From: Patescibacteria group bacterium
GTDB taxonomy: Bacteria; Patescibacteriota; Minisyncoccia; Phycocordibacterales; WO2-35-19
DNA length: 64,000 nucleotides
Assembly: GCA_038064735.1 (NCBI GenBank)
Contig: JBBTSI010000003.1
Location: 21,154 to 85,153 of the forward strand
Direction of reading: 5' to 3'
The notes beneath the pieces are model-generated. The model did no database searches and was not told where the DNA came from. It worked only from the letters and a program-made list of their open reading frames with translations. Position numbers and translations under genes: made by a program. How positions within the stretch are numbered: the first letter of the stretch is position 1; each line of letters begins with the position of its first letter. Shown piece after piece: positions 5,364-61,245 of the stretch.

Positions 5364-6098
5364 TTAATGTAAATTTGTAGGTTTGGCAACATTTTTTAAT
5401 TTGTGCCATCTTTTTTCAATTAAACTGACTTGCGGAGCGATGTCTTTAAGTACTGCTTGTGTCCAGCCGTAAACTTCATATCGGTGGTCAGTTCCTTTTG
5501 GGACTTCAACTCTCATTGTTCCATAATAGAGATTATTTTTTTTATAATTACTACTTAATGGTTTTATGTAGCTTTTGCCAAATTTTTTAACTGGAATTCC
5601 TGTTAAATCTGACCAAAATTTTTTGATTTGTTTTTCTGATTGTTGAGGGTAAATATTTAATCTGGCTGTAAGTTTGTATGGAGGTATTTTAAATATTTTT
5701 TCAACCCATTTTACCCAAAATAAAATTAAATAAGGATCAGAATTGGTCATTTGAAACATTTTGGTTTTGCTGCCCTCTGCCCAATATAATGCCGACCCAA
5801 ATAGACGATAGGTTTCTTCGGTTATTGGTTTTTTTATTTCCAGTTCTGCTTTTTCTATAATAATTGAAACTTCTTTTTCTCTCCTTTGTTTTTGGCAGTA
5901 TTCTCCAGAAGTGAGCATGTGTATTTGTTTGGTATACAATCTCTGCCTGTCTTTGGGCAACAAGGGGACACCTTTAAGCCACAAGCTAAGTGTACTTTTT
6001 GGTATTTTTAGTTTTTTAGATATTTGCCCATAACTCATTCCTTTTTTTCTTAAAACTTCTGCGGGTTCTTTTTTTAAATTTTTATTTACTTCCTCCAT
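5364..6098 (-). CDS. HTH domain + LAGLIDADG-like (single-motif) homing-endonuclease-like protein
   Basis: N-terminal MSYGQISKKLKIPKSTLSLWLKG helix-turn-helix; LFGSALYWAEGSK resembles a LAGLIDADG motif; 14 nt upstream of and co-oriented with tRNA-Lys. Confidence 0.45.
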   Translation of the reverse strand: MEEVNKNLKKEPAEVLRKKGMSYGQISKKLKIPKSTLSLWLKGVPLLPKDRQRLYTKQIHMLTSGEYCQKQRREKEVSIIIEKAELEIKKPITEETYRLFGSALYWAEGSKTKMFQMTNSDPYLILFWVKWVEKIFKIPPYKLTARLNIYPQQSEKQIKKFWSDLTGIPVKKFGKSYIKPLSSNYKKNNLYYGTMRVEVPKGTDHRYEVYGWTQAVLKDIAPQVSLIEKRWHKLKNVAKPTNLH

Positions 6099-8258: not shown

Positions 8259-9752
8259 TTATTCTTGCCTTATCAAAGAAGTGGCTTTGAGCACATCTCC
8301 GGGTACCAAATCGATCTTGGATTCTATCATGGTGCCGAATTCCTGACCTTCTCTGGCAATATCAGCTTTCAGTTTTTGGATTTGGAGTTCTTTTATTTTG
8401 CCGGTACCAATGAAAGATTCTCTGCGGTAAATTTTGATTATGCCACCCGATTTAATTTCTCCCTCTTCGATTTTACCGCCTACAACTTGTTTGTCGCGAT
8501 TTTTGCTGAAGACTCTGATTATCTTAGCGGAGCCGGTTGTTATCTCTACAGTTTCTACCGGAGTAGCTTCTTTTATTTTTTCTTTCACATAATCAACCAG
8601 ATCGTATATAACTTGGTAATTTTTTATTTCTATACCGTCTCGCATAGCCAGTCCCGAAGCACTTTTGTCGGTGCTCACATTGAAGCCGAGTATCAAACTA
8701 TTTTTTATTTTTGCGGTTTTAATGTCGTTTTCGCTCACATCTCCGACATCTTTGGAAATTATTCTGACCGCAATTTTTTCATTACCTAGTTTTTTGAGTT
8801 CATGCTCGACTGCATCAAGTGAACCGAAAGTGTCCGCTTTGATGACCACTCCAAAAGAAATGCAATCATTTTGAAATATGTTACAAATATCATTATTTTG
8901 GTTTGTTTCGGTAGCAAATTTGATAGCCTCTTCTTTTTTGGAGAAAGTTTTGAATTCACTTCCGACTTTTGGTCCGGCACTCCAACCTACAATTTTGATT
9001 GGACTTGAAAAAGTGGCTTCAGAGATATTTTCTTCTTTGTAATTTTCTATGGCTCTTATCGGAGCATAAGCACCACTGGTCGCCACAAACATACCAGTTT
9101 TTAAATAACCATTTTTTATTATGAGATTGGCGGAAATGCCTTGTTTAGGATTGAGATCGCTTTCTATAACGAAACCTTCAGCGGGTATGGATGGGTCGCC
9201 TTCGAGTTCTTCCATATCAGACTGCAAAGCTATCATCTCTAAAAGATCAGGCACTCCAGCACCGGTTTTGGCGGAAATAGCTATAGCTGGGATGTTGCCA
9301 CCCCAACCTTCAACCAAAACTCCGTTTTCGGCTAAATTTTGTTTTACTTTATCTATATTGGCGCCAGGCCTGTCAATTTTGTTTAAAGCGATGATGAAAG
9401 GGATAGCATCTTTATTAATACAATCTAAAGCCTCAAGAGTTTGGGGTTTAACGCCATCTTCAGAAGAAACTACGAGTATAGCTATATCTGCTACTTTGGC
9501 ACCACGCGCTCTGATAGAACAAAAAGCTTCATGTCCTGGGGTGTCTAAAAAAGTTATTTTTCTTTTTTCACCGCCGGCCATTATTTCTACTTCGTAAGCA
9601 GAAATATGCTGAGTGATACCACCAGCCTCGAATTCGGTGGTGTTGGCTTTTCTTATATAATCAAGCAGAGTAGATTTGCCATGGTCAATGTGTCCCATGA
9701 TGACCACTATCGGCGGACGAACTAATTTTTTTGTTTTATTTTTTGGTGTCAT
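8259..9752 (-). CDS. infB: translation initiation factor IF-2 (short form lacking N-terminal domains)
   Basis: GHIDHGKST (G1), DTPGH (G3), NKID (G4) and the C-terminal beta-barrel domains. Confidence 0.9.
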   Translation of the reverse strand: MTPKNKTKKLVRPPIVVIMGHIDHGKSTLLDYIRKANTTEFEAGGITQHISAYEVEIMAGGEKRKITFLDTPGHEAFCSIRARGAKVADIAILVVSSEDGVKPQTLEALDCINKDAIPFIIALNKIDRPGANIDKVKQNLAENGVLVEGWGGNIPAIAISAKTGAGVPDLLEMIALQSDMEELEGDPSIPAEGFVIESDLNPKQGISANLIIKNGYLKTGMFVATSGAYAPIRAIENYKEENISEATFSSPIKIVGWSAGPKVGSEFKTFSKKEEAIKFATETNQNNDICNIFQNDCISFGVVIKADTFGSLDAVEHELKKLGNEKIAVRIISKDVGDVSENDIKTAKIKNSLILGFNVSTDKSASGLAMRDGIEIKNYQVIYDLVDYVKEKIKEATPVETVEITTGSAKIIRVFSKNRDKQVVGGKIEEGEIKSGGIIKIYRRESFIGTGKIKELQIQKLKADIAREGQEFGTMIESKIDLVPGDVLKATSLIRQE

Positions 9753-55963: not shown

Positions 55964-56647
55964 ATGGACCAAAATAAAGAATTGCATCATGCGAGCGTTG
56001 TTATAGGAGATGATTGCCGTAGTTTTGTTTTGGAAATTTTGATCAATAGATTGAATTTTAATACAAAAGCCAATCCAGATTTTTTGCTTATAGAAAATCA
56101 AAGTTTTGGCATTGATGAAGTACGTAATCTCGAAAGATGGGCCATAGGTAAACCACTTGTCGGTGATGTCAAAGCTTCTTTAATAATAGTTAATTCCATC
56201 ACTTTTGAAGCTCAAAACGCTTTACTCAAAATTTTAGAAGAACCACCTTTGGGAACATATTTTTTTATAAATCTTCAAAGTCTGGGTGGATTACTTCCAA
56301 CTTTTCTTTCGAGAGTTAGAATTTTGTTTTTGAGGTCAGACCTTGAAAAAAAGTCCCAAAGGTCTGACCTCGGGGACGGCAATGCAAAAAAATTTTTACT
56401 TTCCCAAATTAAAGAAAAATTTTCTATGATACGTTCTCTTTCAAAAAAAGAAGACCCTACTTCGCTAAAGCTTCGAGGGGCAAGTAAAAATGAAATGAAA
56501 GAATTAATTAAAAATTTAGAGGAGATTGCTTACAAAAATAATTTTAAAGCTCAAGACTTAAAAAACATATTAATTGCTAAAACCTTCGCTTCTGTTAGGG
56601 GTTCTTCTCCCAAAATGCTTCTGGAGTGGCTTTCATGTGTGTTATAA
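55964..56647 (+). CDS. holB: DNA polymerase III delta-prime-like subunit (degenerate AAA+)
   Basis: AQNALLKILEEPP signature box; no intact Walker A. Confidence 0.6.
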   Translation: MDQNKELHHASVVIGDDCRSFVLEILINRLNFNTKANPDFLLIENQSFGIDEVRNLERWAIGKPLVGDVKASLIIVNSITFEAQNALLKILEEPPLGTYFFINLQSLGGLLPTFLSRVRILFLRSDLEKKSQRSDLGDGNAKKFLLSQIKEKFSMIRSLSKKEDPTSLKLRGASKNEMKELIKNLEEIAYKNNFKAQDLKNILIAKTFASVRGSSPKMLLEWLSCVL

Positions 56648-56665
56648 TTTTATCCACATAAATCT

Positions 56666-58489
56666 ATGGAAAAACACCCCCTTCACCTCAAAATCCCAGA
56701 ACTGCAAAAGTCAGAAGAAGTAGAATTAGCTGTAGAAAAACAGGAACGTCTAACTGAGGAAAAAATACCCAACAATCCCAACGAAAGAATAGAAGCATAC
56801 ATGGATCGTTTGGAAAACATCTTCCTCAACCCCAACGAACGGGTAAGAGAAAGGAACCTGGAGATGGTCAAAAACAAGATATACGATAACCTCCTCATCA
56901 AGAAAGAAAACTTCCCTGAGTCATACTTCGAACTCCAAAAAAGAGTAGCTAGAGAACAAGGTCACGGTGATATAGAAATCACTCCGGAAATGCGTGACCA
57001 AATGATGAATGTAGCTATCGAAGACCAAAAACATTCTCTAGACCAATGGACAGACTACCTCACATCAGAAGATGCTGTCTATCCGGCTTGGTTTAAATAC
57101 TACGCTTGGAGCCAAGTCATTAAGTTATCTCAATTTGATAAAGAAAGAGGTGAATTCAAAAAACGCACTGACTCTACCGTCGCTCCATACCCCGATATAT
57201 ACCGCGAACCCCTAGCTGAACTCTGCGACCTTTACGAAAAAGTTAAGGAAGATAACAAGGCTCTCAAAGATGATGAAGTCAAAAGACTCTTTTCTGAAAG
57301 ATTTCCTTCTGCTTACGCCGAACTCATTCAAAAATCCCTCGCTTCTCAAATTGAAAATCAAGAAGAAATCAAAGGAGAATGGATAAAGTATGAACAAGGT
57401 GATATGAGACAAGCCGAGAAACTCTACGAATCTCTGGAAGGCAAAGGCACTGGTTGGTGTACTGCAGGCAAGTCAACCGCTAAAACTCAAGTTGAACAAG
57501 GAGATTTTTATGTATATTACACTAACGATTCAGAAGATAAACCCACTCAACCCAGATTAGCTATCCGTATGAACGGTCAAAACAAAATTGGTGAAATTCG
57601 AGGTATTTTACCTCATCAAAACGTTGAATCTATGATGCAAGATGTATTAGACAGAAAACTCAACACCTTTGGTGACGCTGGTGATATCTACAGAGAAAAA
57701 AGCTATGATATGCAACGTCTCACTAAGATTGAGGAAAAGACCAAATCAAACCAAGAACTTTCAAAAGAAGACCTCATCTTTCTCTACGAAATCAACAGAA
57801 AGATTGAAGGGTTTGGGTATGACAAAGATCCGAGAATTGAGGAGATTAGAGGAGAGAGGAATATAAAAGAAGACGCGCCAATCATACTTGAATGCAAACC
57901 TGAAGAAATCGCTACCAATGAAAGTGAAATAACAGAAAACACCAAAGCCTACATTGGCAAACTTTTTCCCAACATATTTAAAACCAACATTAACCCAGAT
58001 AATATTTATACTTCTTTTCCTGAAGGCAAAATTCAAAAATATGAGACTCAGATTGGAGGAAAAACTAAAGATGAATTAATGCTAGAAATGCAAGAAAAAA
58101 ATATCAATATTTCAGATTATGCTAAGGATATGTTAAACAGCCAAGATTTTACTACTCAAACAAATCAAGAAAACCTCAATCTCGTCAGACTAACTGTCAA
58201 AGACTTGGGATTCCCAAATGGCACTACTACAGATGAAATTTACAAGAAAGCCGAAGAATTCGGTTTAGAACTCTGTCCCGCTGAAGTCGGCCCATCCCTC
58301 AGACTCTCATATTTAGGGAAAGATTATATGGTTATCGCTATGAAGCAAATCACAGACCGCGACGGCCGCCTGAGAGTGTTTGACCTCTACTGGTATGGCG
58401 GCAAGCTCGTACTGAGCACGTTTTACGCTAAGCCTTCGAATAGGTGGGATGACTACCACAAGTTCATTTTTCGTTCCCGCAAGTCTTAG
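56666..58489 (+). CDS. DGR target (variable) protein, 607 aa, C-terminal C-type-lectin/FGE-like variable region
   Basis: C-terminal 44 codons form the variable repeat (VR), homologous to the downstream template repeat with adenine-specific differences; the rest has no recognisable domain. Confidence 0.75.
   Translation: MEKHPLHLKIPELQKSEEVELAVEKQERLTEEKIPNNPNERIEAYMDRLENIFLNPNERVRERNLEMVKNKIYDNLLIKKENFPESYFELQKRVAREQGHGDIEITPEMRDQMMNVAIEDQKHSLDQWTDYLTSEDAVYPAWFKYYAWSQVIKLSQFDKERGEFKKRTDSTVAPYPDIYREPLAELCDLYEKVKEDNKALKDDEVKRLFSERFPSAYAELIQKSLASQIENQEEIKGEWIKYEQGDMRQAEKLYESLEGKGTGWCTAGKSTAKTQVEQGDFYVYYTNDSEDKPTQPRLAIRMNGQNKIGEIRGILPHQNVESMMQDVLDRKLNTFGDAGDIYREKSYDMQRLTKIEEKTKSNQELSKEDLIFLYEINRKIEGFGYDKDPRIEEIRGERNIKEDAPIILECKPEEIATNESEITENTKAYIGKLFPNIFKTNINPDNIYTSFPEGKIQKYETQIGGKTKDELMLEMQEKNINISDYAKDMLNSQDFTTQTNQENLNLVRLTVKDLGFPNGTTTDEIYKKAEEFGLELCPAEVGPSLRLSYLGKDYMVIAMKQITDRDGRLRVFDLYWYGGKLVLSTFYAKPSNRWDDYHKFIFRSRKS
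58353..58485 (+). repeat. DGR variable repeat (VR)
   Basis: 133-nt alignment to the TR; 18 mismatches, 17 at positions where the TR has A. Confidence 0.8.
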
Positions 58490-58827
58490 AGATTTGGATA
58501 CTTAGTTTCTTAATTCCAATTTTCCTTATTTAGATTTTTTGAAATTTTGATACTTTGGTTTTTATTTTTTTAAAATTCTGTATACTAAATTCAGATTGGT
58601 TATTTTGGACGGTCACGGCTTTCCAAAACCTTTCCGATACAAATAAATTGAGATTATAAACGGCCACGGCTTTTTATAGAGTAATTTATTTTGTATTCTA
58701 AAAAGAAATATACTTGGTATATGGTGCTGTGTGATTTGAGATCATGCATAAAATTAAACTCAAGTTTTTGTTTTTCATTAAATAATCACAAGAGAAGAAC
58801 GGTGTAATAGATGGCGCTGTATACAAA

Positions 58828-58960
58828 CAGACCGCGACGGCAACCTGAAAGTGTTTAACCTCAACTGGAATGGCGACAAGCTCAAACTGAACACGAACAA
58901 CGCTAAGCCTTCGAATAGGTGGAATGACAACAACAAGTTCATTTTTCGTTCCCGAAAGTC
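58828..58960 (+). repeat. DGR template repeat (TR)
   Basis: Rich in AAC/AAT codons in the VR reading frame (N L K V F N L N W N G D K L K L N T N N ...); non-coding copy 340 nt downstream of the VR. Confidence 0.8.
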
Positions 58961-58981
58961 ACTTCTTTTCCTTGCTGGATT

Positions 58982-59383
58982 TTATCTCGCAAGGTTTTTC
59001 TTTTCCGGATTTTCTAAATTTTTCCTCCAACCACCAAACATTTTACCGATTTCTTTCAATTTTTCTCCAATTTCTGCGTATTGTTTATGAGAAATTAGTT
59101 TACCTTCCCAAGTTATATGAATCAAAAATTTGATGGCGTCCAAATCTAAAATACACTGGTTTATCCTTTCTATTTTCTTATCTTTTTCGATAAAATAGGC
59201 TATATATGAAAGTTCCAGCAAATCCAAAAATTTATTCTCAATGCGAGCACCAATGCTGTGGCGTTGGCCTTTAGGCACATGATCAAGAATACTTACCCAA
59301 AGCAAATATGCCTCTTTGATGCGTTGAAGTATCGAGGCGTTAACGAGAGAGAGAGAGAGAGAGAGAGTAGAAAATTGCGCCAT
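58982..59383 (-). CDS. avd: Avd-like accessory protein (four-helix-bundle, 23S rRNA IVS-protein family)
   Basis: 133 aa; pattern ...HVPKGQRHSIGARIENKFLDLLELSYIAYF...YAEIGEKLKEIGKMFGGWRK typical of the TIGR02436/Avd family; N-terminus LSLSLSLS encoded by a (GA)n repeat. Confidence 0.6.
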   Translation of the reverse strand: MAQFSTLSLSLSLVNASILQRIKEAYLLWVSILDHVPKGQRHSIGARIENKFLDLLELSYIAYFIEKDKKIERINQCILDLDAIKFLIHITWEGKLISHKQYAEIGEKLKEIGKMFGGWRKNLENPEKKNLAR

Positions 59384-60367
59384 AAATATAACGATACCAT
59401 ATCAGTAGAAAATTTGCTCCACTCTTGGCAGGAATTTTTGTGTGGCAAGAAAAAACGCAAAGATGTAGCCGAATTTTTATTAAATTTTTCTGATAATATT
59501 TTTGATTTGCGTCAAGAACTCAAAAACAAAACTTACAAACACGGTGGATATCATGCTTTCAAAATAAATGACCCAAAACCAAGGAGTATTCATAAAGCTA
59601 GTGTCAGAGACAGACTTTTACACCATGTAATTTATAATGCTCTGTATCCGTATTTTGACCGGAAATTTATTTTTGATTCGTATTCTTGTAGGTTTGGGAA
59701 GGGGACACATAAGGCTATAAATCGTTTCAGAGAATTTGGCCGCAAAGTCTCAACAAATCATACTAAAACCTGTTGGGTATTGAAGTGTGATATCAGGAAG
59801 TTTTTTGCTAGTATTAATCATAATCTTTTGAAAGATATTCTTGATAAAAATATCAAAGACCCAGACATTTTTTGGCTACTTAATCAGGTTATAGATAGCT
59901 TTAATACAGAAAACAAAGTTGATGTCGGTTTGCCTCTCGGTAACCTTACAAGTCAGATTTTTGTAAACATTTATATGGACAAATTTGATCAGTTTATGAA
60001 AAGAGAAATCAAAGCCAAATATTATATAAGATACGCAGATGATTTTGTGATTTTAAGCGAAAACAAAAATTATCTTTTAAAACTTATACCTAAAATCGCT
60101 AGTTTTTTAGAAGAAAAATTAAAATTAGAATTGCACCCAAACAAACTTTTTGTTAAAACCTTATCTTCAGGGATTGATTTTCTGGGCTGGGTGCATTTTC
60201 CTAAGTATAGAGTTTTGAGAACTAGCACCAAAAATAGAATGTTTAGAAGACTAGCAGGGGAATTTAAAAAAGAAACAGGGGCTTCGTATTCAGGACTATT
60301 GAGTCATGGGAACGGGTTTAAGTTGGGGGAGAGAATTAAGTTGTTGCAAAAGCAAAATTTGGTATAA
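59258..60367 (+). CDS. DGR reverse transcriptase
   Basis: RT motifs: SYSCRFGKGTHKA, LKCDIRKFFASINH, GLPLGNLTSQIFVNIYM (DGR-specific SQ motif 4), YIRYADDFVIL (motif 5). True start uncertain; the listed ORF start overlaps avd in antisense. Confidence 0.8.
   Translation: MALAFRHMIKNTYPKQICLFDALKYRGVNERERERESRKLRHKYNDTISVENLLHSWQEFLCGKKKRKDVAEFLLNFSDNIFDLRQELKNKTYKHGGYHAFKINDPKPRSIHKASVRDRLLHHVIYNALYPYFDRKFIFDSYSCRFGKGTHKAINRFREFGRKVSTNHTKTCWVLKCDIRKFFASINHNLLKDILDKNIKDPDIFWLLNQVIDSFNTENKVDVGLPLGNLTSQIFVNIYMDKFDQFMKREIKAKYYIRYADDFVILSENKNYLLKLIPKIASFLEEKLKLELHPNKLFVKTLSSGIDFLGWVHFPKYRVLRTSTKNRMFRRLAGEFKKETGASYSGLLSHGNGFKLGERIKLLQKQNLV
59345..59365. repeat. (GA)10 dinucleotide microsatellite
   Basis: gagagagagagagagagagag inside the avd 5' coding region and the RT upstream frame. 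Confidence 0.9.
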
Positions 60368-60376
60368 TGGGGACTT

Positions 60377-60679
60377 ATGGCAAATCTAGATGTAGAAAAA
60401 ATAATAAAAAGGGTCCAAAACGAGTCTGATAAAAAGATGAAAGAGTATATGGAACGATACGTTGGATCCCTACAGGAACATACTAATGACAGATTTAAAA
60501 TTATTAAAGAGGGGATGGATGGTATAAATCAAAGATTAGATTCTCATACAGAAATGATAAGTTCTCTTGCGGAAGATATAACAGAAATAAAAAATGGTAT
60601 GAGGCAAAAAGTTGAACGCTATGAATTTGAAGCGCTTACAAAAAGAGTTTCTGTTGTTGAAAGAAAAATCACACACTAA
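60377..60679 (+). CDS. hypothetical coiled-coil protein downstream of the DGR RT
   Basis: 100 aa, charged, helical heptad pattern; no domain. Confidence 0.4.
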   Translation: MANLDVEKIIKRVQNESDKKMKEYMERYVGSLQEHTNDRFKIIKEGMDGINQRLDSHTEMISSLAEDITEIKNGMRQKVERYEFEALTKRVSVVERKITH

Positions 60680-60696
60680 ATTTAAAAAATATATTT

Positions 60697-61245
60697 ATGT
60701 TTGATTTTTCAGAATTAAAAACAAAAAGCAAAGAAGTGGAAAATTGGCTGTCCAAAGAGCTTTCAGTTATCCGTACTGGCAGAGCCAATTCTTCTATTCT
60801 TGATTTCGTCCAAGTTGAAGCTTACGGTTCAAAAATGTCCATCAAAGAATTGGCCAATATTACTGTAGAAGATGCCAAGACAGTGAGGATAGAGCCTTGG
60901 GATATGACAGTCGGCAAAAGTATTGAAAAGGCGATCAGCACTTCAAATCTTGGACTTTCAGTTGCAGCTTTTGATAAAGGTTTGCGTATTATTTTTCCAG
61001 AACTTACAGCTGAAAGAAGAGAGCAGTTCGTCAAAGTAGCCAAAGGACAACTTGAAGAAGCTAAAATGTCTTTGCGAAGTTTGCGTGATAAAACCGGTAA
61101 AGCTATTGAAGAAAAAGAAAAAGCTGGTGGTATGGGTGAAGATGACAAATTCAGATTAAAAGAAGAGATGCAAAAGATTATAGATGCAAGTGTTAGTATG
61201 TTAGAACAAATGGCTGAGAAAAAAGAGAAAGAAATAAAGAGTTAA
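60697..61245 (+). CDS. frr: ribosome recycling factor
   Basis: LSVIRTGRANSSILD...FPELTAERREQFVKVAK... RRF signature. Confidence 0.85.
   Translation: MFDFSELKTKSKEVENWLSKELSVIRTGRANSSILDFVQVEAYGSKMSIKELANITVEDAKTVRIEPWDMTVGKSIEKAISTSNLGLSVAAFDKGLRIIFPELTAERREQFVKVAKGQLEEAKMSLRSLRDKTGKAIEEKEKAGGMGEDDKFRLKEEMQKIIDASVSMLEQMAEKKEKEIKS

What the first reader, a model, noticed from the sequence alone, without database searches (positions are those of the whole stretch)
56666..60367. Complete diversity-generating retroelement with adenine-specific VR/TR mismatches and non-canonical gene order
The 3' 133 nt of the 607-aa ORF (58353..58485) recur 340 nt downstream in a non-coding copy (58828..58960). 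The alignment has 18 mismatches, and 17 of them are at positions where the downstream copy carries A (template A to variable C, G or T). That copy is saturated with AAC/AAT codons in the target reading frame. This is the signature of DGR mutagenic homing. An Avd-like four-helix-bundle ORF and an RT with the DGR-specific GLPLGNLTSQ motif 4 and YADD complete the system. The target N-terminal 560 aa are unannotatable. Avd is encoded on the opposite strand, between the TR and the RT, which is unusual.
Basis: partly seen in the sequence, partly recalled or inferred. Interest (0 to 1): 0.85.

Follow-up and report, generated by a model that had tools for sequence, protein, structure and literature searches.

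The report
Patescibacteria DGR with structured RNA and switch
This is a genuine diversity-generating retroelement of the type normal for ultra-small Patescibacteria, and comparison with relatives shows that its template lies in a large conserved structured RNA and that its accessory gene carries a slippery repeat that probably switches the mutator on and off.

Summary
VR 58352-58485 and TR 58827-58960 align without gaps, with 18 mismatches, 17 of them at template adenines (P=1.7e-8). The RT is closest to the Bordetella DGR RT, Avd matches bAvd, and the target C-terminus models as a compact C-type-lectin fold. The "unusual" gene order is not unusual: TR-(avd)-RT is architecture B3, which makes up 90% of CPR DGRs (Wu et al. 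2018), and it was present in every related locus examined. As found, this is a new member of a known kind.

Two lineage-wide features go beyond the finding, and I found neither described in the literature I could search.

1. The 340-nt VR-TR "spacer" is the 5' domain of a structured TR RNA. It has six covarying helices (43 pairs, 94% paired against 35-48% in slid controls, 42 loci), an upstream extended -10 box, and a terminator-like hairpin just 3' of the TR. It is absent from Rfam, and a covariance model finds it once per DGR locus and nowhere else.

2. A simple-sequence repeat, (GA)n or poly-G, sits in the avd 5' end in 33 of 36 loci and nowhere else in 772 kb. Near-identical strains differ from the window in the DGR only by its length, which changes the avd frame.

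No evidence shows the VR is currently turning over in this strain.

The parts
56666..58489 (+). DGR target gene, 607 aa. The N-terminal and central regions (about 1-440) are unannotated, and the C-terminal domain (about 500-607) has a compact C-type-lectin fold that carries the VR.
58352..58485 (+). Variable repeat (VR), the last 44 codons of the target.
   Evidence: There are 18 mismatches to the TR, 17 at TR adenines.
58581..58586 (+). Putative -10 box (TATACT) of the TR-RNA promoter, giving an inferred transcription start near 58593.
   Evidence: A conserved TGnTATAMT box lies at the same alignment position in most group-1 loci. This is sequence inference only, with no transcript data.
58593..58826 (+). 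Structured 5' domain of the TR RNA. Its elements are hairpin HA (58605-58613/58618-58626), helix Hx (58642-58645/58687-58690) enclosing hairpin HB (58655-58665/58668-58678), a purine tract (58700-58713), the invariant ACUUGG (58712-58717), P1 (58717-58728/58813-58824), P2 (58732-58735/58741-58744) and P3 (58758-58762/58796-58800). HA and HB share the conserved sequence CGGYYACGGYUU at their apical ends.
   Evidence: RNAalifold on 42 loci gives 43 pairs, 38 with compensatory changes. The counts are 94.1% paired against 35-48% when slid, 454 compensatory cells against 64-97, and 0/500 shuffles. CM R1 hits window 58700-58827 at 89.7 bits. No Rfam match at E<=1.
58827..58960 (+). Template repeat (TR), A-rich with 46 A in 134 nt.
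58962..59005 (+). 3' tail of the TR RNA: pyrimidine tract 58962-58969, GC hairpin P4 (58970-58976/58988-58994), and U-run 58995-59005. It resembles an intrinsic terminator on the TR strand, and it overlaps the avd stop codon and last codons.
   Evidence: A stable hairpin followed by TTTTTCTTTT or TTTTGTTTT is present in every locus, with differing stem sequences. P4 is 79% paired against 34-51% when slid. The purine:pyrimidine bracket pairing is only suggestive.
58982..59383 (-). avd, the accessory variability determinant: 133 aa and in frame ('ON') in this window.
   Evidence: Pfam PF22296 bAvd scores 56.4 bits against a cutoff of 40. NCBIfam DivGenRetAVD scores 74.8 bits, just under its cutoff of 80. 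Avd is divergent from the RT in all related loci.
59345..59366 (.). (GA)11 simple-sequence repeat inside avd codons 6-13 and just upstream of the RT start. It is a candidate slipped-strand switch.
   Evidence: It is the only such SSR in the 64-kb window, and all 33 comparable SSRs in 772 kb of related loci lie at the avd 5' end. L082 and L083 have 9 units and a frameshifted avd. The Avd cluster holds 133, 138, 145 and 107-aa forms.
59375..60367 (+). DGR reverse transcriptase, 330 aa from TTG 59375. The ORF is open upstream to 59258, and its start overlaps the avd start head-to-head.
   Evidence: Pfam RVT_1. The best solved relative is the Bordetella bRT 8ub7 (E=3.9e-41, aligned from ORF residue 44). 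The motifs LGNLTSQ and YADD are present. The gene is called as 330 aa in L082 and L083.

Best explanation
This is a chromosomal diversity-generating retroelement of the Patescibacteria-specific lineage (architecture B3: TR, then avd on the opposite strand, then RT).

Shown: the last 44 codons of a 607-aa protein (VR) are a copy of a non-coding template (TR) 475 nt downstream, differing almost only where the template has adenine. The RT is of the DGR type. Avd is present and in frame. The VR sits on a compact C-type-lectin fold. Close homologues in other populations are hypervariable precisely in this segment.

Inferred mechanism: the TR is transcribed as part of a discrete RNA of about 410 nt (roughly 58593-59005). 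Its 234-nt 5' domain is a conserved multi-helix structure, and its 3' end is a terminator-like hairpin. The RT-Avd complex binds this RNA and reverse-transcribes the TR with random misincorporation opposite A. The cDNA then replaces the VR, recoding up to about 15 surface residues of the lectin-fold domain.

In Bordetella the protein-binding and priming RNA (the spacer) lies 3' of the TR. Here that position is occupied by antisense avd. I propose that the 5' domain supplies those functions. P1 abuts the TR 5' end like the Bordetella 'stop' duplex. The purine tract plus ACUUGG may pair just 3' of the TR, positioning a primer there.

A hypermutable (GA)n or poly-G tract in the first codons of avd changes length between strains and sets the avd reading frame. 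It probably acts as a stochastic on/off or isoform switch for the whole mutator. The window is in an 'on' frame.
For: A-specific VR/TR: (17 of 18 mismatches at TR-A, P=1.7e-8).

RT type: (bRT 8ub7 at E=3.9e-41, against group II and retron RTs at about 1e-19 to 1e-20).

Avd.

CLec fold.

Lineage context: about 34 related loci have 70-150 nt VR/TR pairs with mismatches overwhelmingly at TR-A, for example 20/20, 24/24 and 23/23. All share TR-(avd)-RT. B3 is the CPR norm, and the CPR-restricted DGR clade 2 is described by Roux et al..

Natural diversification in the family: within two 90% clusters, 19-26 of the last 50-60 alignment columns vary, with up to 8 states, against 0-12 in the other 50-column bins.

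Structured RNA: for covariation with controls; for the covariance model (46 hits at E<1e-3, one per DGR locus, on the TR strand directly 5' of the TR, including about 19 loci not used for training, and none elsewhere in 836 kb); for the 3' hairpin plus U-run.

Strand: U-G pairs at fixed positions (35/42 and 39/42) fit only the TR-sense strand.

Priming site: A-to-N sites reach TR 58955, so cDNA synthesis must start at or beyond the TR 3' end. This is where the purine:pyrimidine pairing would sit.

Bordetella comparison.

SSR.
Against: There is no sign of current VR turnover in this strain. Three assemblies of near-identical strains share an identical VR and TR.

One mismatch is not at an A.

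Avd scores 74.8 bits against NCBIfam's equivalog cutoff of 80.

There is no GC-rich IMH and no conserved hairpin after the VR.

No transcript data exist, so the promoter, the terminator and the RNA ends are all inferred.

The proposed bracket pairing is weak, A/U-rich and only suggestive.

Nothing here shows which nucleotide primes cDNA synthesis or that the 5' domain binds RT or Avd.

SSR lengths come from short-read metagenome assemblies, which are error-prone at repeats. Two of the three frames give a full-length Avd, so the effect may be an isoform change rather than a simple on/off switch.
Confidence: 0.8

Rival explanations
1. This is a structurally intact but currently silent or decaying DGR. 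The VR was written once by the TR and is now fixed, and the repeat-length differences in avd are simply inactivating slippage mutations on the way to gene loss.
For: The VR and TR are identical in three assemblies whose target genes differ at 45 other nucleotides. Twenty of 34 related loci have no in-frame ATG upstream of the repeat. There is one non-A mismatch.
Against: The RT ORF is intact and carries the catalytic motifs, and avd is in frame in the window. The repeat is retained at the same place in 33 of 36 loci, as two different repeat types, and occurs nowhere else in 772 kb. That argues for selection on the tract rather than decay. The RNA domain shows purifying selection with compensatory changes. 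Sister populations show strong VR hypervariability.
Confidence: 0.15
2. The conserved 5' RNA domain is not part of the reverse-transcription machinery. It is a cis-regulatory leader (a riboswitch, or an attenuator controlling TR-RNA levels) or an independent small RNA that merely neighbours the TR. The real spacer functions are encoded downstream in the antisense-avd transcript, as in Bordetella.
For: No experiment links the domain to RT or Avd. Handa et al. find putative Avd-binding stem-loops just 3' of the TR in 207 of 278 Avd-containing DGRs, and a hairpin exists there in this lineage too. The twin hairpins sharing a conserved CGGYYACGGYUU sequence could bind any ligand or protein.
Against: The P1 3' strand ends 2-5 nt before the TR in every locus, and the domain is never found apart from a TR. 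The hairpin 3' of the TR is followed by a U-run typical of intrinsic terminators, which leaves only about 45 nt of 3' RNA. That is far short of the 140-nt Bordetella spacer. No Rfam riboswitch or RT-associated motif matches.
Confidence: 0.25
3. The purine repeat, (GA)n or poly-G on the RT strand, is not a phase-variation device. It is a functional sequence for the RT gene, such as a Shine-Dalgarno-like element, a 5'-UTR element or a polypurine tract, and the length differences between assemblies are sequencing or assembly artefacts.
For: Both repeat types are purine-only on the RT strand and lie 10-40 nt upstream of the RT start. Short-read assemblies are unreliable at homopolymers of 10-14 bases.
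Against: Two independent assemblies agree on 9 units and the window has 11, with every other base of the 2-kb DGR identical. The protein database holds three different N-terminal forms of the same Avd from separate samples. Tract lengths of 9-14 (mono) and 5-21 units (di) are in the range of known contingency loci (general knowledge of Campylobacter, Helicobacter and Neisseria SSRs).
Confidence: 0.2
4. The element is not a DGR but a retron, a group II intron remnant or a defence-associated RT next to a chance repeat.
For: Generic RT models such as group_II_RT_mat, Drt3a and UG families match the RT below their cutoffs.
Against: All those matches fall far below the family cutoffs (for example 142 bits against 300 for group II). 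The best solved relative is the DGR RT, by 20 orders of magnitude. The A-specific repeat has P=1.7e-8 and recurs in about 34 loci. Avd is present.
Confidence: 0.01

Closest known systems
CPR/Patescibacteria DGRs: architecture B3, TR-(avd)-RT, of Wu et al. 2018 (PMC5758913), and DGR clade 2 of Roux et al. 2021 (PMC8144416)
   Same: The gene order and strands match. The host phylum matches. The element is chromosomal and cellular rather than phage-borne. The target has no recognisable N-terminal domain or membrane anchor. The VR is at the C-terminus, and A-to-N mismatches fall at codon positions 1 and 2.
   Different: The architecture is no different, and this element is a typical member. What I add, and did not find in those papers, is the large covarying RNA domain 5' of the TR, the terminator-like 3' hairpin, and the SSR at the avd 5' end. 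I could not read Paul et al. 2017 (Nat Microbiol 2:17045), so priority there is unchecked.
Bordetella phage BPP-1 DGR (mtd-avd-TR-brt) and its DGR RNA (Handa et al., bioRxiv 10.1101/2023.10.23.563531; PDB 8ub7)
   Same: The RT is homologous (E=3.9e-41), Avd is homologous, and the target has a CLec fold. The TR is 134 nt in both. Both have a stem-loop immediately 3' of the TR, and both have a helix abutting the TR 5' end (Bordetella avd:Sp 'cPRT Stop'; P1 here).
   Different: In Bordetella avd is upstream on the same strand, and all structured RNA (the Avd-binding stem-loop, the priming A56, the Thumb Ring and the bRT-binding stem-loop, 140 nt in all) lies 3' of the TR. Here avd is antisense in that position, only about 45 nt follow the TR before a U-run, and a 234-nt structured domain lies 5' of it. 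The helix at the TR 5' end is formed with upstream rather than downstream sequence. There is no GC-rich IMH or cruciform after the VR. The Rfam RT-10 motif (the Bordetella spacer) does not match.
SSR-mediated phase-variable contingency loci (Campylobacter and Neisseria poly-G tracts, Helicobacter CT/AG dinucleotide repeats)
   Same: A mono- or dinucleotide repeat of 9-14 bases or 5-21 units sits in the first codons of an ORF. Its length is polymorphic between near-identical strains, and that changes the reading frame. The position is conserved while the repeat type differs among orthologues.
   Different: Known contingency loci mostly control surface structures or restriction-modification systems. 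Here the controlled gene is the accessory factor of a targeted hypermutator, so one stochastic mutator would gate another. Two of the three frames have start codons, so switching may include isoform change. No experimental switching rates exist.

Membership tests
Diversity-generating retroelement (DGR) | A TR/VR repeat pair whose differences are concentrated at template adenines | tested here: met
   17 of 18 mismatches are at TR-A, with hypergeometric P=1.7e-8.
Diversity-generating retroelement (DGR) | A reverse transcriptase of the DGR clade (motif 4 [LIV]GxxxSQ, YxDD), distinct from group II and retron RTs | tested here: met
   LGNLTSQ and YADD are present. The best PDB relative is bRT 8ub7 at E=3.9e-41, against about 1e-19 to 1e-20 for retron-type and group II RTs. 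All non-DGR NCBIfam RT models fall far below cutoff. No formal phylogeny was built.
Diversity-generating retroelement (DGR) | The VR lies at the 3' end of a protein-coding target and is displayed on a C-type-lectin fold | tested here: met
   [not shown]
Diversity-generating retroelement (DGR) | The accessory protein Avd | tested here: met
   Pfam bAvd scores 56.4 bits (cutoff 40). NCBIfam DivGenRetAVD scores 74.8 bits, slightly under the equivalog cutoff of 80.
Diversity-generating retroelement (DGR) | A GC-rich IMH at the VR 3' end with a downstream inverted repeat (Bordetella-type target recognition) | tested here: not met
   Homology ends at ...CGTTCCCG(C/A)AAGTC with no 14-bp GC block, and no conserved hairpin follows the VR across loci. 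Wu et al. report the inverted repeat in only 34% of DGRs, so this is not disqualifying.
Diversity-generating retroelement (DGR) | Ongoing diversification: A-site polymorphism of the VR in populations | tested here: inconclusive
   The VR is identical in three assemblies of this strain complex. The VR is hypervariable within the 90% clusters of two homologues. Read-level data are not available.
DGR architecture B3, TR-(avd)-RT (Wu et al. 2018) | TR, then avd on the reverse strand, then RT | tested here: met
   The window coordinates are TR 58827-58960 (+), avd 58982-59383 (-) and RT 59375-60367 (+). The same order holds in all loci with both genes.
Bordetella-type DGR RNA / Rfam RT-10 motif | [quoted passage not shown] | tested here: not met
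   There is no Rfam hit at E<=1 in 56000-61000. The TR-RT interval is antisense avd, and a U-run follows the TR after about 45 nt. A different structured domain lies 5' of the TR.
SSR contingency (phase-variable) locus | A hypermutable repeat in the 5' coding region whose length varies between close strains and changes the frame | tested here: met
   11 against 9 GA units with all other DGR bases identical. The frame consequence is shown and the three N-terminal forms. Specificity is 33 of 33 SSRs at the avd 5' end.
SSR contingency (phase-variable) locus | Reversible high-frequency switching within a clonal population, with a phenotypic effect | not testable with these tools
   This needs read-level, long-read or culture data. 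Patescibacteria of this clade are uncultured.

The most novel reading that the evidence does not exclude
Patescibacteria DGRs use a rearranged DGR RNA. In it, the RT/Avd-binding and priming functions that Bordetella keeps in the 3' spacer are carried by a 234-nt structured domain 5' of the template. The whole mutator is gated by a slipped-strand repeat in avd. A stochastic contingency switch would therefore turn a targeted hypermutator on and off in organisms with minimal genomes.
Probability: 0.4. Interest if true: 0.8.

Novelty: new variant of a known kind. Interest (0 to 1): 0.62.

Why it matters
As a DGR in a Patescibacteria genome this is expected, because such genomes are the most DGR-rich known. 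Its value lies in what the comparison exposed.

First, mechanistic knowledge of DGR reverse transcription rests on a single phage system whose RNA layout cannot apply to architecture B3, the dominant form in CPR. A defined, covarying RNA of about 410 nt, with clear helices, an invariant ACUUGG and a twin-hairpin motif, gives a concrete construct for reconstituting a CPR DGR. It also allows a test of whether priming and stop elements can be permuted around the template.

Second, a repeat-length switch on avd would explain how cells avoid continuous self-mutagenesis. It would also explain why many DGRs look 'inactive' in single assemblies, and it offers a simple read-level marker of DGR state in metagenomes.

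Third, the target belongs to a family of more than 2,800 unannotated, apparently cytoplasmic proteins of about 610 aa with a new compact CLec variant. This bears on the open question of what CPR DGR targets bind.

Tried and rejected
- **PcfJ-like domain.** I guessed this from the GKGTGWCTAG motif and from Wu et al.'s category g. There is no Pfam hit in any of the 49 family members even at E<=1.
- **Foldseek with the full-length model.** Against PDB it returned only non-significant CLec hits. The afdb50 library was unavailable.
- **Additional VRs.** None were found in the window.
- **Synteny.** The target is not a syntenic core gene, since its neighbours differ between genomes.
- **P0009 as a test of generality.** It has the same N-terminus and a different C-terminus, but its locus has no TR, RT, Avd or RNA element within 7 kb, so the test was uninformative.
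- **An RNAalifold helix pairing ACUUGG with TR 58916-58921.** I rejected it as the priming duplex because A-to-N sites extend to TR 58955, 3' of it.
- **Loop-TR kissing.** I considered pairing between the conserved HA/HB sequence and the TR 'AAGCC' segment and dropped it by inspection, because the two did not covary.
- **The purine tract as a promoter.** I rejected this because conservation and covarying helices extend 110 nt further upstream, to a conserved -10 box.
- **Paul et al. 2017.** The paper could not be retrieved, and Wu et al.'s supplements are not held. I therefore could not check whether this VR class equals one of their UVR1-6 classes.

Full report
**1. The observation**

The repeat finder reports a 134-nt ungapped direct repeat, 58352-58485 and 58827-58960, at 87% identity. 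A base-by-base comparison gives 18 mismatches, and in 17 of them the downstream copy has A. The exception is C at TR 58898 opposite T at VR 58423, inside a codon where all three bases differ. Sixteen of the 18 fall at codon positions 1 or 2 of the 607-aa ORF 56666..58489. The TR codons involved are mostly AAC or AAT. The TR has 46 A in 134 bases, so at least 17 of 18 mismatches at A has a hypergeometric probability of 1.7e-8. A search with the TR in which A is replaced by N finds no other copy in the window.

**2. The proteins**

The ORF 58982..59383 on the minus strand matches Pfam bAvd above its gathering score (56.4 against 40 bits). It matches NCBIfam DivGenRetAVD at 74.8 bits, just under the equivalog cutoff of 80.

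The RT ORF matches RVT_1 and carries LGNLTSQ and YADD. Against all solved structures its best relative is the Bordetella phage DGR RT (8ub7, E=3.9e-41). Retron-type and group II intron RTs follow at about 1e-19 to 1e-20. Group II, retron and DRT family models all score far below their cutoffs. The alignment to bRT begins at ORF residue 44, and gene calls in sister assemblies start the RT at the TTG at 59375, giving 330 aa. The RT and avd starts therefore overlap head-to-head.

The target has no Pfam, NCBIfam, PADLOC or PDB sequence match, even with a family profile.

**3. The target family and its fold**

The target has more than 2,800 database relatives. These are full-length proteins of about 610 aa at 61-65% identity, and the named ones are labelled Patescibacteria (Paceibacteria, Zambryskibacteria and others) with no functional annotation. 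Their C-termini share a scaffold, MKQITDxDGxPxVFxLxRxxxGLWLxxxWAxPxxxWxPxxxFxFRLRK, with variable positions between the fixed ones.

**4. Related loci and the gene order**

Eighty loci encoding relatives of the target were fetched from species-representative genomes. Almost all are Patescibacteria MAGs. In every locus with both genes, avd and the RT are divergent. The TR lies just beyond the avd 3' end on the RT strand. The cassette TR, reverse avd, RT occurs downstream of the target in the same orientation, or inverted upstream or downstream of it.

About 34 loci have a VR/TR pair of 70-150 nt whose mismatches are overwhelmingly at TR adenines, for example 20/20, 24/24 and 23/23. About 25 loci have no DGR in the flank that was fetched.

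Wu et al. 2018 name this order architecture B3, TR-(avd)-RT. [quoted passage not shown] Roux et al. 2021 place Patescibacteria DGRs in their own clade 2.

**5. Evidence of activity**

Within the 90% identity clusters of two homologues (P0102, P0046), 19-26 of the last 50-60 alignment columns vary, with up to 8 residues per column. Other 50-column bins have 0-12 variable columns. That is population-level diversification of the VR in the family.

In the window's own strain complex the picture differs. Three assemblies have identical VR and TR, although their target genes differ at 45 nucleotides clustered in codons 176-352. Current turnover in this strain is therefore not shown.

**6. A structured RNA 5' of the TR (beyond the finding)**

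Aligning the sequence upstream of the TR across loci showed strong conservation with complementary, covarying flanks.

For the proximal 120 nt (27 loci), RNAalifold predicts three helices, P1 to P3. Of the 22 pairs, 18 show compensatory changes. The controls are:
- 91.7% of cells paired, against 24-45% with partners slid by 1-3 columns
- 119 compensatory cells, against 16-40 when slid
- 0 of 500 column shuffles as high

A covariance model built from these sequences was run over 836 kb, covering the window plus 80 loci on both strands. It finds 46 hits at E<1e-3, exactly one per DGR-bearing locus, always on the TR strand and directly 5' of the TR. About 19 of those loci were not used for training. 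There are no other hits in the 64-kb window or in DGR-less loci. Rfam 15 has no match at E<=1.

Conservation continues about 110 nt further upstream. It includes two hairpins, HA and HB, that share the conserved sequence CGGYYACGGYUU at their apical ends. These are the window's 'direct repeat' 58602-58622 / 58653-58673. A further helix, Hx, encloses HB. Upstream of these lies a conserved TGnTATAMT box, TATACT at 58581-58586 in the window.

On 42 loci the full domain has 43 pairs in six helices, 38 of them with compensatory changes. The controls are:
- 94.1% paired, against 35-48% when slid
- 454 compensatory cells, against 64-97 when slid
- 0 of 500 shuffles as high

Fixed U-G pairs (35/42 and 39/42) place the structure on the TR-sense strand.

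**7. The 3' flank of the TR**

In every locus the TR is followed by a pyrimidine tract, a 7-11 bp GC-rich hairpin whose stem sequence differs between loci, and then TTTTTCTTTT or TTTTGTTTT on the TR strand. The hairpin is 79% paired against 34-51% when slid, even in an alignment that is not structure-aware. This looks like an intrinsic terminator. In the window it spans 58970-59005 and overlaps the avd stop codon and last codons. The simplest reading is a discrete TR RNA of about 410 nt, roughly 58593-59005. This is inference, since no transcript data are available.

**8. Comparison with the Bordetella DGR RNA**

Handa et al. (bioRxiv 10.1101/2023.10.23.563531) show that in Bordetella all functional RNA lies in the 140-nt spacer 3' of the TR. 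It comprises an Avd-binding stem-loop, a TR:Sp template:primer duplex with the priming A56, a 'cPRT Stop' duplex formed between the spacer and the 20 nt upstream of the TR, a Thumb Ring, and a bRT-binding stem-loop. Their conservation survey took only 40 nt upstream and 100 nt downstream of the TR. Weinberg et al. 2017 had flagged the Bordetella spacer as motif RT-10 and guessed that other DGRs have their own RNAs.

In the B3 lineage the spacer position is antisense avd, and only about 45 nt follow the TR before the U-run.

I propose that the 5' domain takes over the spacer's roles, and I mark this as inference. P1, whose 3' strand ends 2-5 nt before the TR, would be the barrier at the TR 5' end. 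The 3' hairpin may be the Avd-binding stem-loop equivalent as well as a terminator. The continuous strand, purine tract then invariant ACUUGG then P1 5' strand, may pair through the purine tract with the pyrimidine tract just 3' of the TR. The TR would then be bracketed much as in Bordetella.

That bracket pairing is possible in all 36 loci tested. Cognate duplexes average -6.0 kcal/mol, against -3.6 to -4.1 for cross-group pairs and -2.9±1.5 for shuffled partners. Several A-U to U-A flips are consistent with it. The duplex is weak and low in complexity, however, so I rate it only as suggestive.

One constraint is firm. A-to-N sites reach TR 58955, five bases from the end of homology. cDNA synthesis must therefore begin at or beyond the TR 3' end.

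**9. A hypermutable repeat in avd (beyond the finding)**

At the avd/RT junction nearly every locus has a simple-sequence repeat inside the first codons of avd. In some it is (GA)n, and in others poly-G of 9-14, read on the RT strand. The position is conserved while the repeat type, and so the encoded peptide (LSLSLS against PPPP), differs. This points to selection on the tract itself.

I defined an SSR as G or C of at least 9, any dinucleotide of at least 7 units, or A or T of at least 12. By that definition the avd tract is the only one in the 64-kb window. In 772 kb of related loci, all 33 SSRs lie within 120 nt of the avd 5' end and none lie elsewhere.

Two assemblies of near-identical strains, L082 and L083, are identical to the window across the VR, the RNA domain, the TR, avd and the RT except for this tract. 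They have 9 GA units where the window has 11. In them the avd ATG frame reads 28 codons and stops, and the gene caller reports a 107-aa Avd from an internal TTG.

The Avd 90% cluster also holds 138 and 145-aa forms, in which a different upstream start is in frame through the repeat. Three natural tract lengths thus give two full-length isoforms and one truncated or off state. Across 34 SSR-bearing loci, 14 have an in-frame ATG upstream of the tract and 20 do not.

I found no paper in the searchable library that links DGRs or avd with SSR phase variation. Two caveats apply. Repeat lengths from short-read assemblies are noisy. Switching within a population has not been shown.

**10. Verdict**

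The finding is a real and complete DGR, and it is a typical member of the Patescibacteria B3 / clade-2 kind. Its target is a huge, unannotated protein family with a compact CLec variant. The 'non-canonical order' is not a novelty.

The surrounding analysis adds two lineage-wide features that appear undescribed. One is a structured, self-contained TR RNA whose functional domain sits 5' of the template. The other is a contingency repeat in avd. Both make specific, testable predictions. I could not access Paul et al. 2017, so priority for these two features is not fully checked.

Noticed in passing
window 57193-57721 (target codons 176-352): Between the window and two near-identical assemblies (L082, L083), 45 nucleotide differences cluster in this roughly 530-nt stretch of the target's N-terminal and central region. 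The 3.5 kb upstream (priA, mreB, holB) and the whole DGR have none apart from the SSR. The changes are not A-specific and form two or three blocks that differ between L082 and L083. They look like recombination or gene-conversion tracts in a second, DGR-independent variable region.
   Followed up: partly
P0009 / L081:7001-8821: This homologue has an N-terminal 430 aa that is 90% identical to the window protein, far closer than any full-length homologue (about 65%). Its C-terminus is unrelated but VR-like (…GSVFRGSSGRWYVPYSHWRGDGFVRHILWLGYDWSSDCRLVLLEA). It lies directly after a ribosomal-protein operon and has no TR, RT or Avd within 7 kb. This suggests C-terminal module swapping between close relatives, or a remote DGR.
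   Followed up: partly
window 58490-58580, and the equivalent region of L025, L039 and L068: Between the VR stop codon and the TR-RNA promoter there are several copies of a short motif, (G/T)AYYCTTTGR or CTTGG, for example GATACTTTGG and TTTGGATAC in the window. They could be -35-like elements or binding sites. I did not analyse them.
   Followed up: no
[not shown]
   Followed up: partly
L019:4187-11211: This locus has a tandem duplication of about 3.4 kb carrying the target gene, avd and the 5' RNA element (two covariance-model hits at 5709-5831 and 9078-9200) but only one RT. It is either a two-target DGR or an assembly repeat.
   Followed up: no
L017:2305-3317: An RT (60% identical to the window's) lies directly downstream of a weak match to the 5' RNA model (36 bits). 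No Avd and no detectable TR are present, so this may be a degenerate or rearranged cassette.
   Followed up: no
window 60377-60679: A 100-aa coiled-coil ORF immediately follows the RT. It has weak relatives (32-38% identity) within a few kb of the target gene in two other DGR loci (L012, L048). It is otherwise unannotated, and a link to the DGR is unclear.
   Followed up: no
window 59258-59383: The RT reading frame is open for 39 codons upstream of the TTG start and runs through the (GA)n tract (…ERERERES…), overlapping avd on the other strand. In the 9-unit strains this upstream frame is closed 9 codons before the TTG. Tract length therefore also alters the potential upstream coding or leader region of the RT.
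   Followed up: partly
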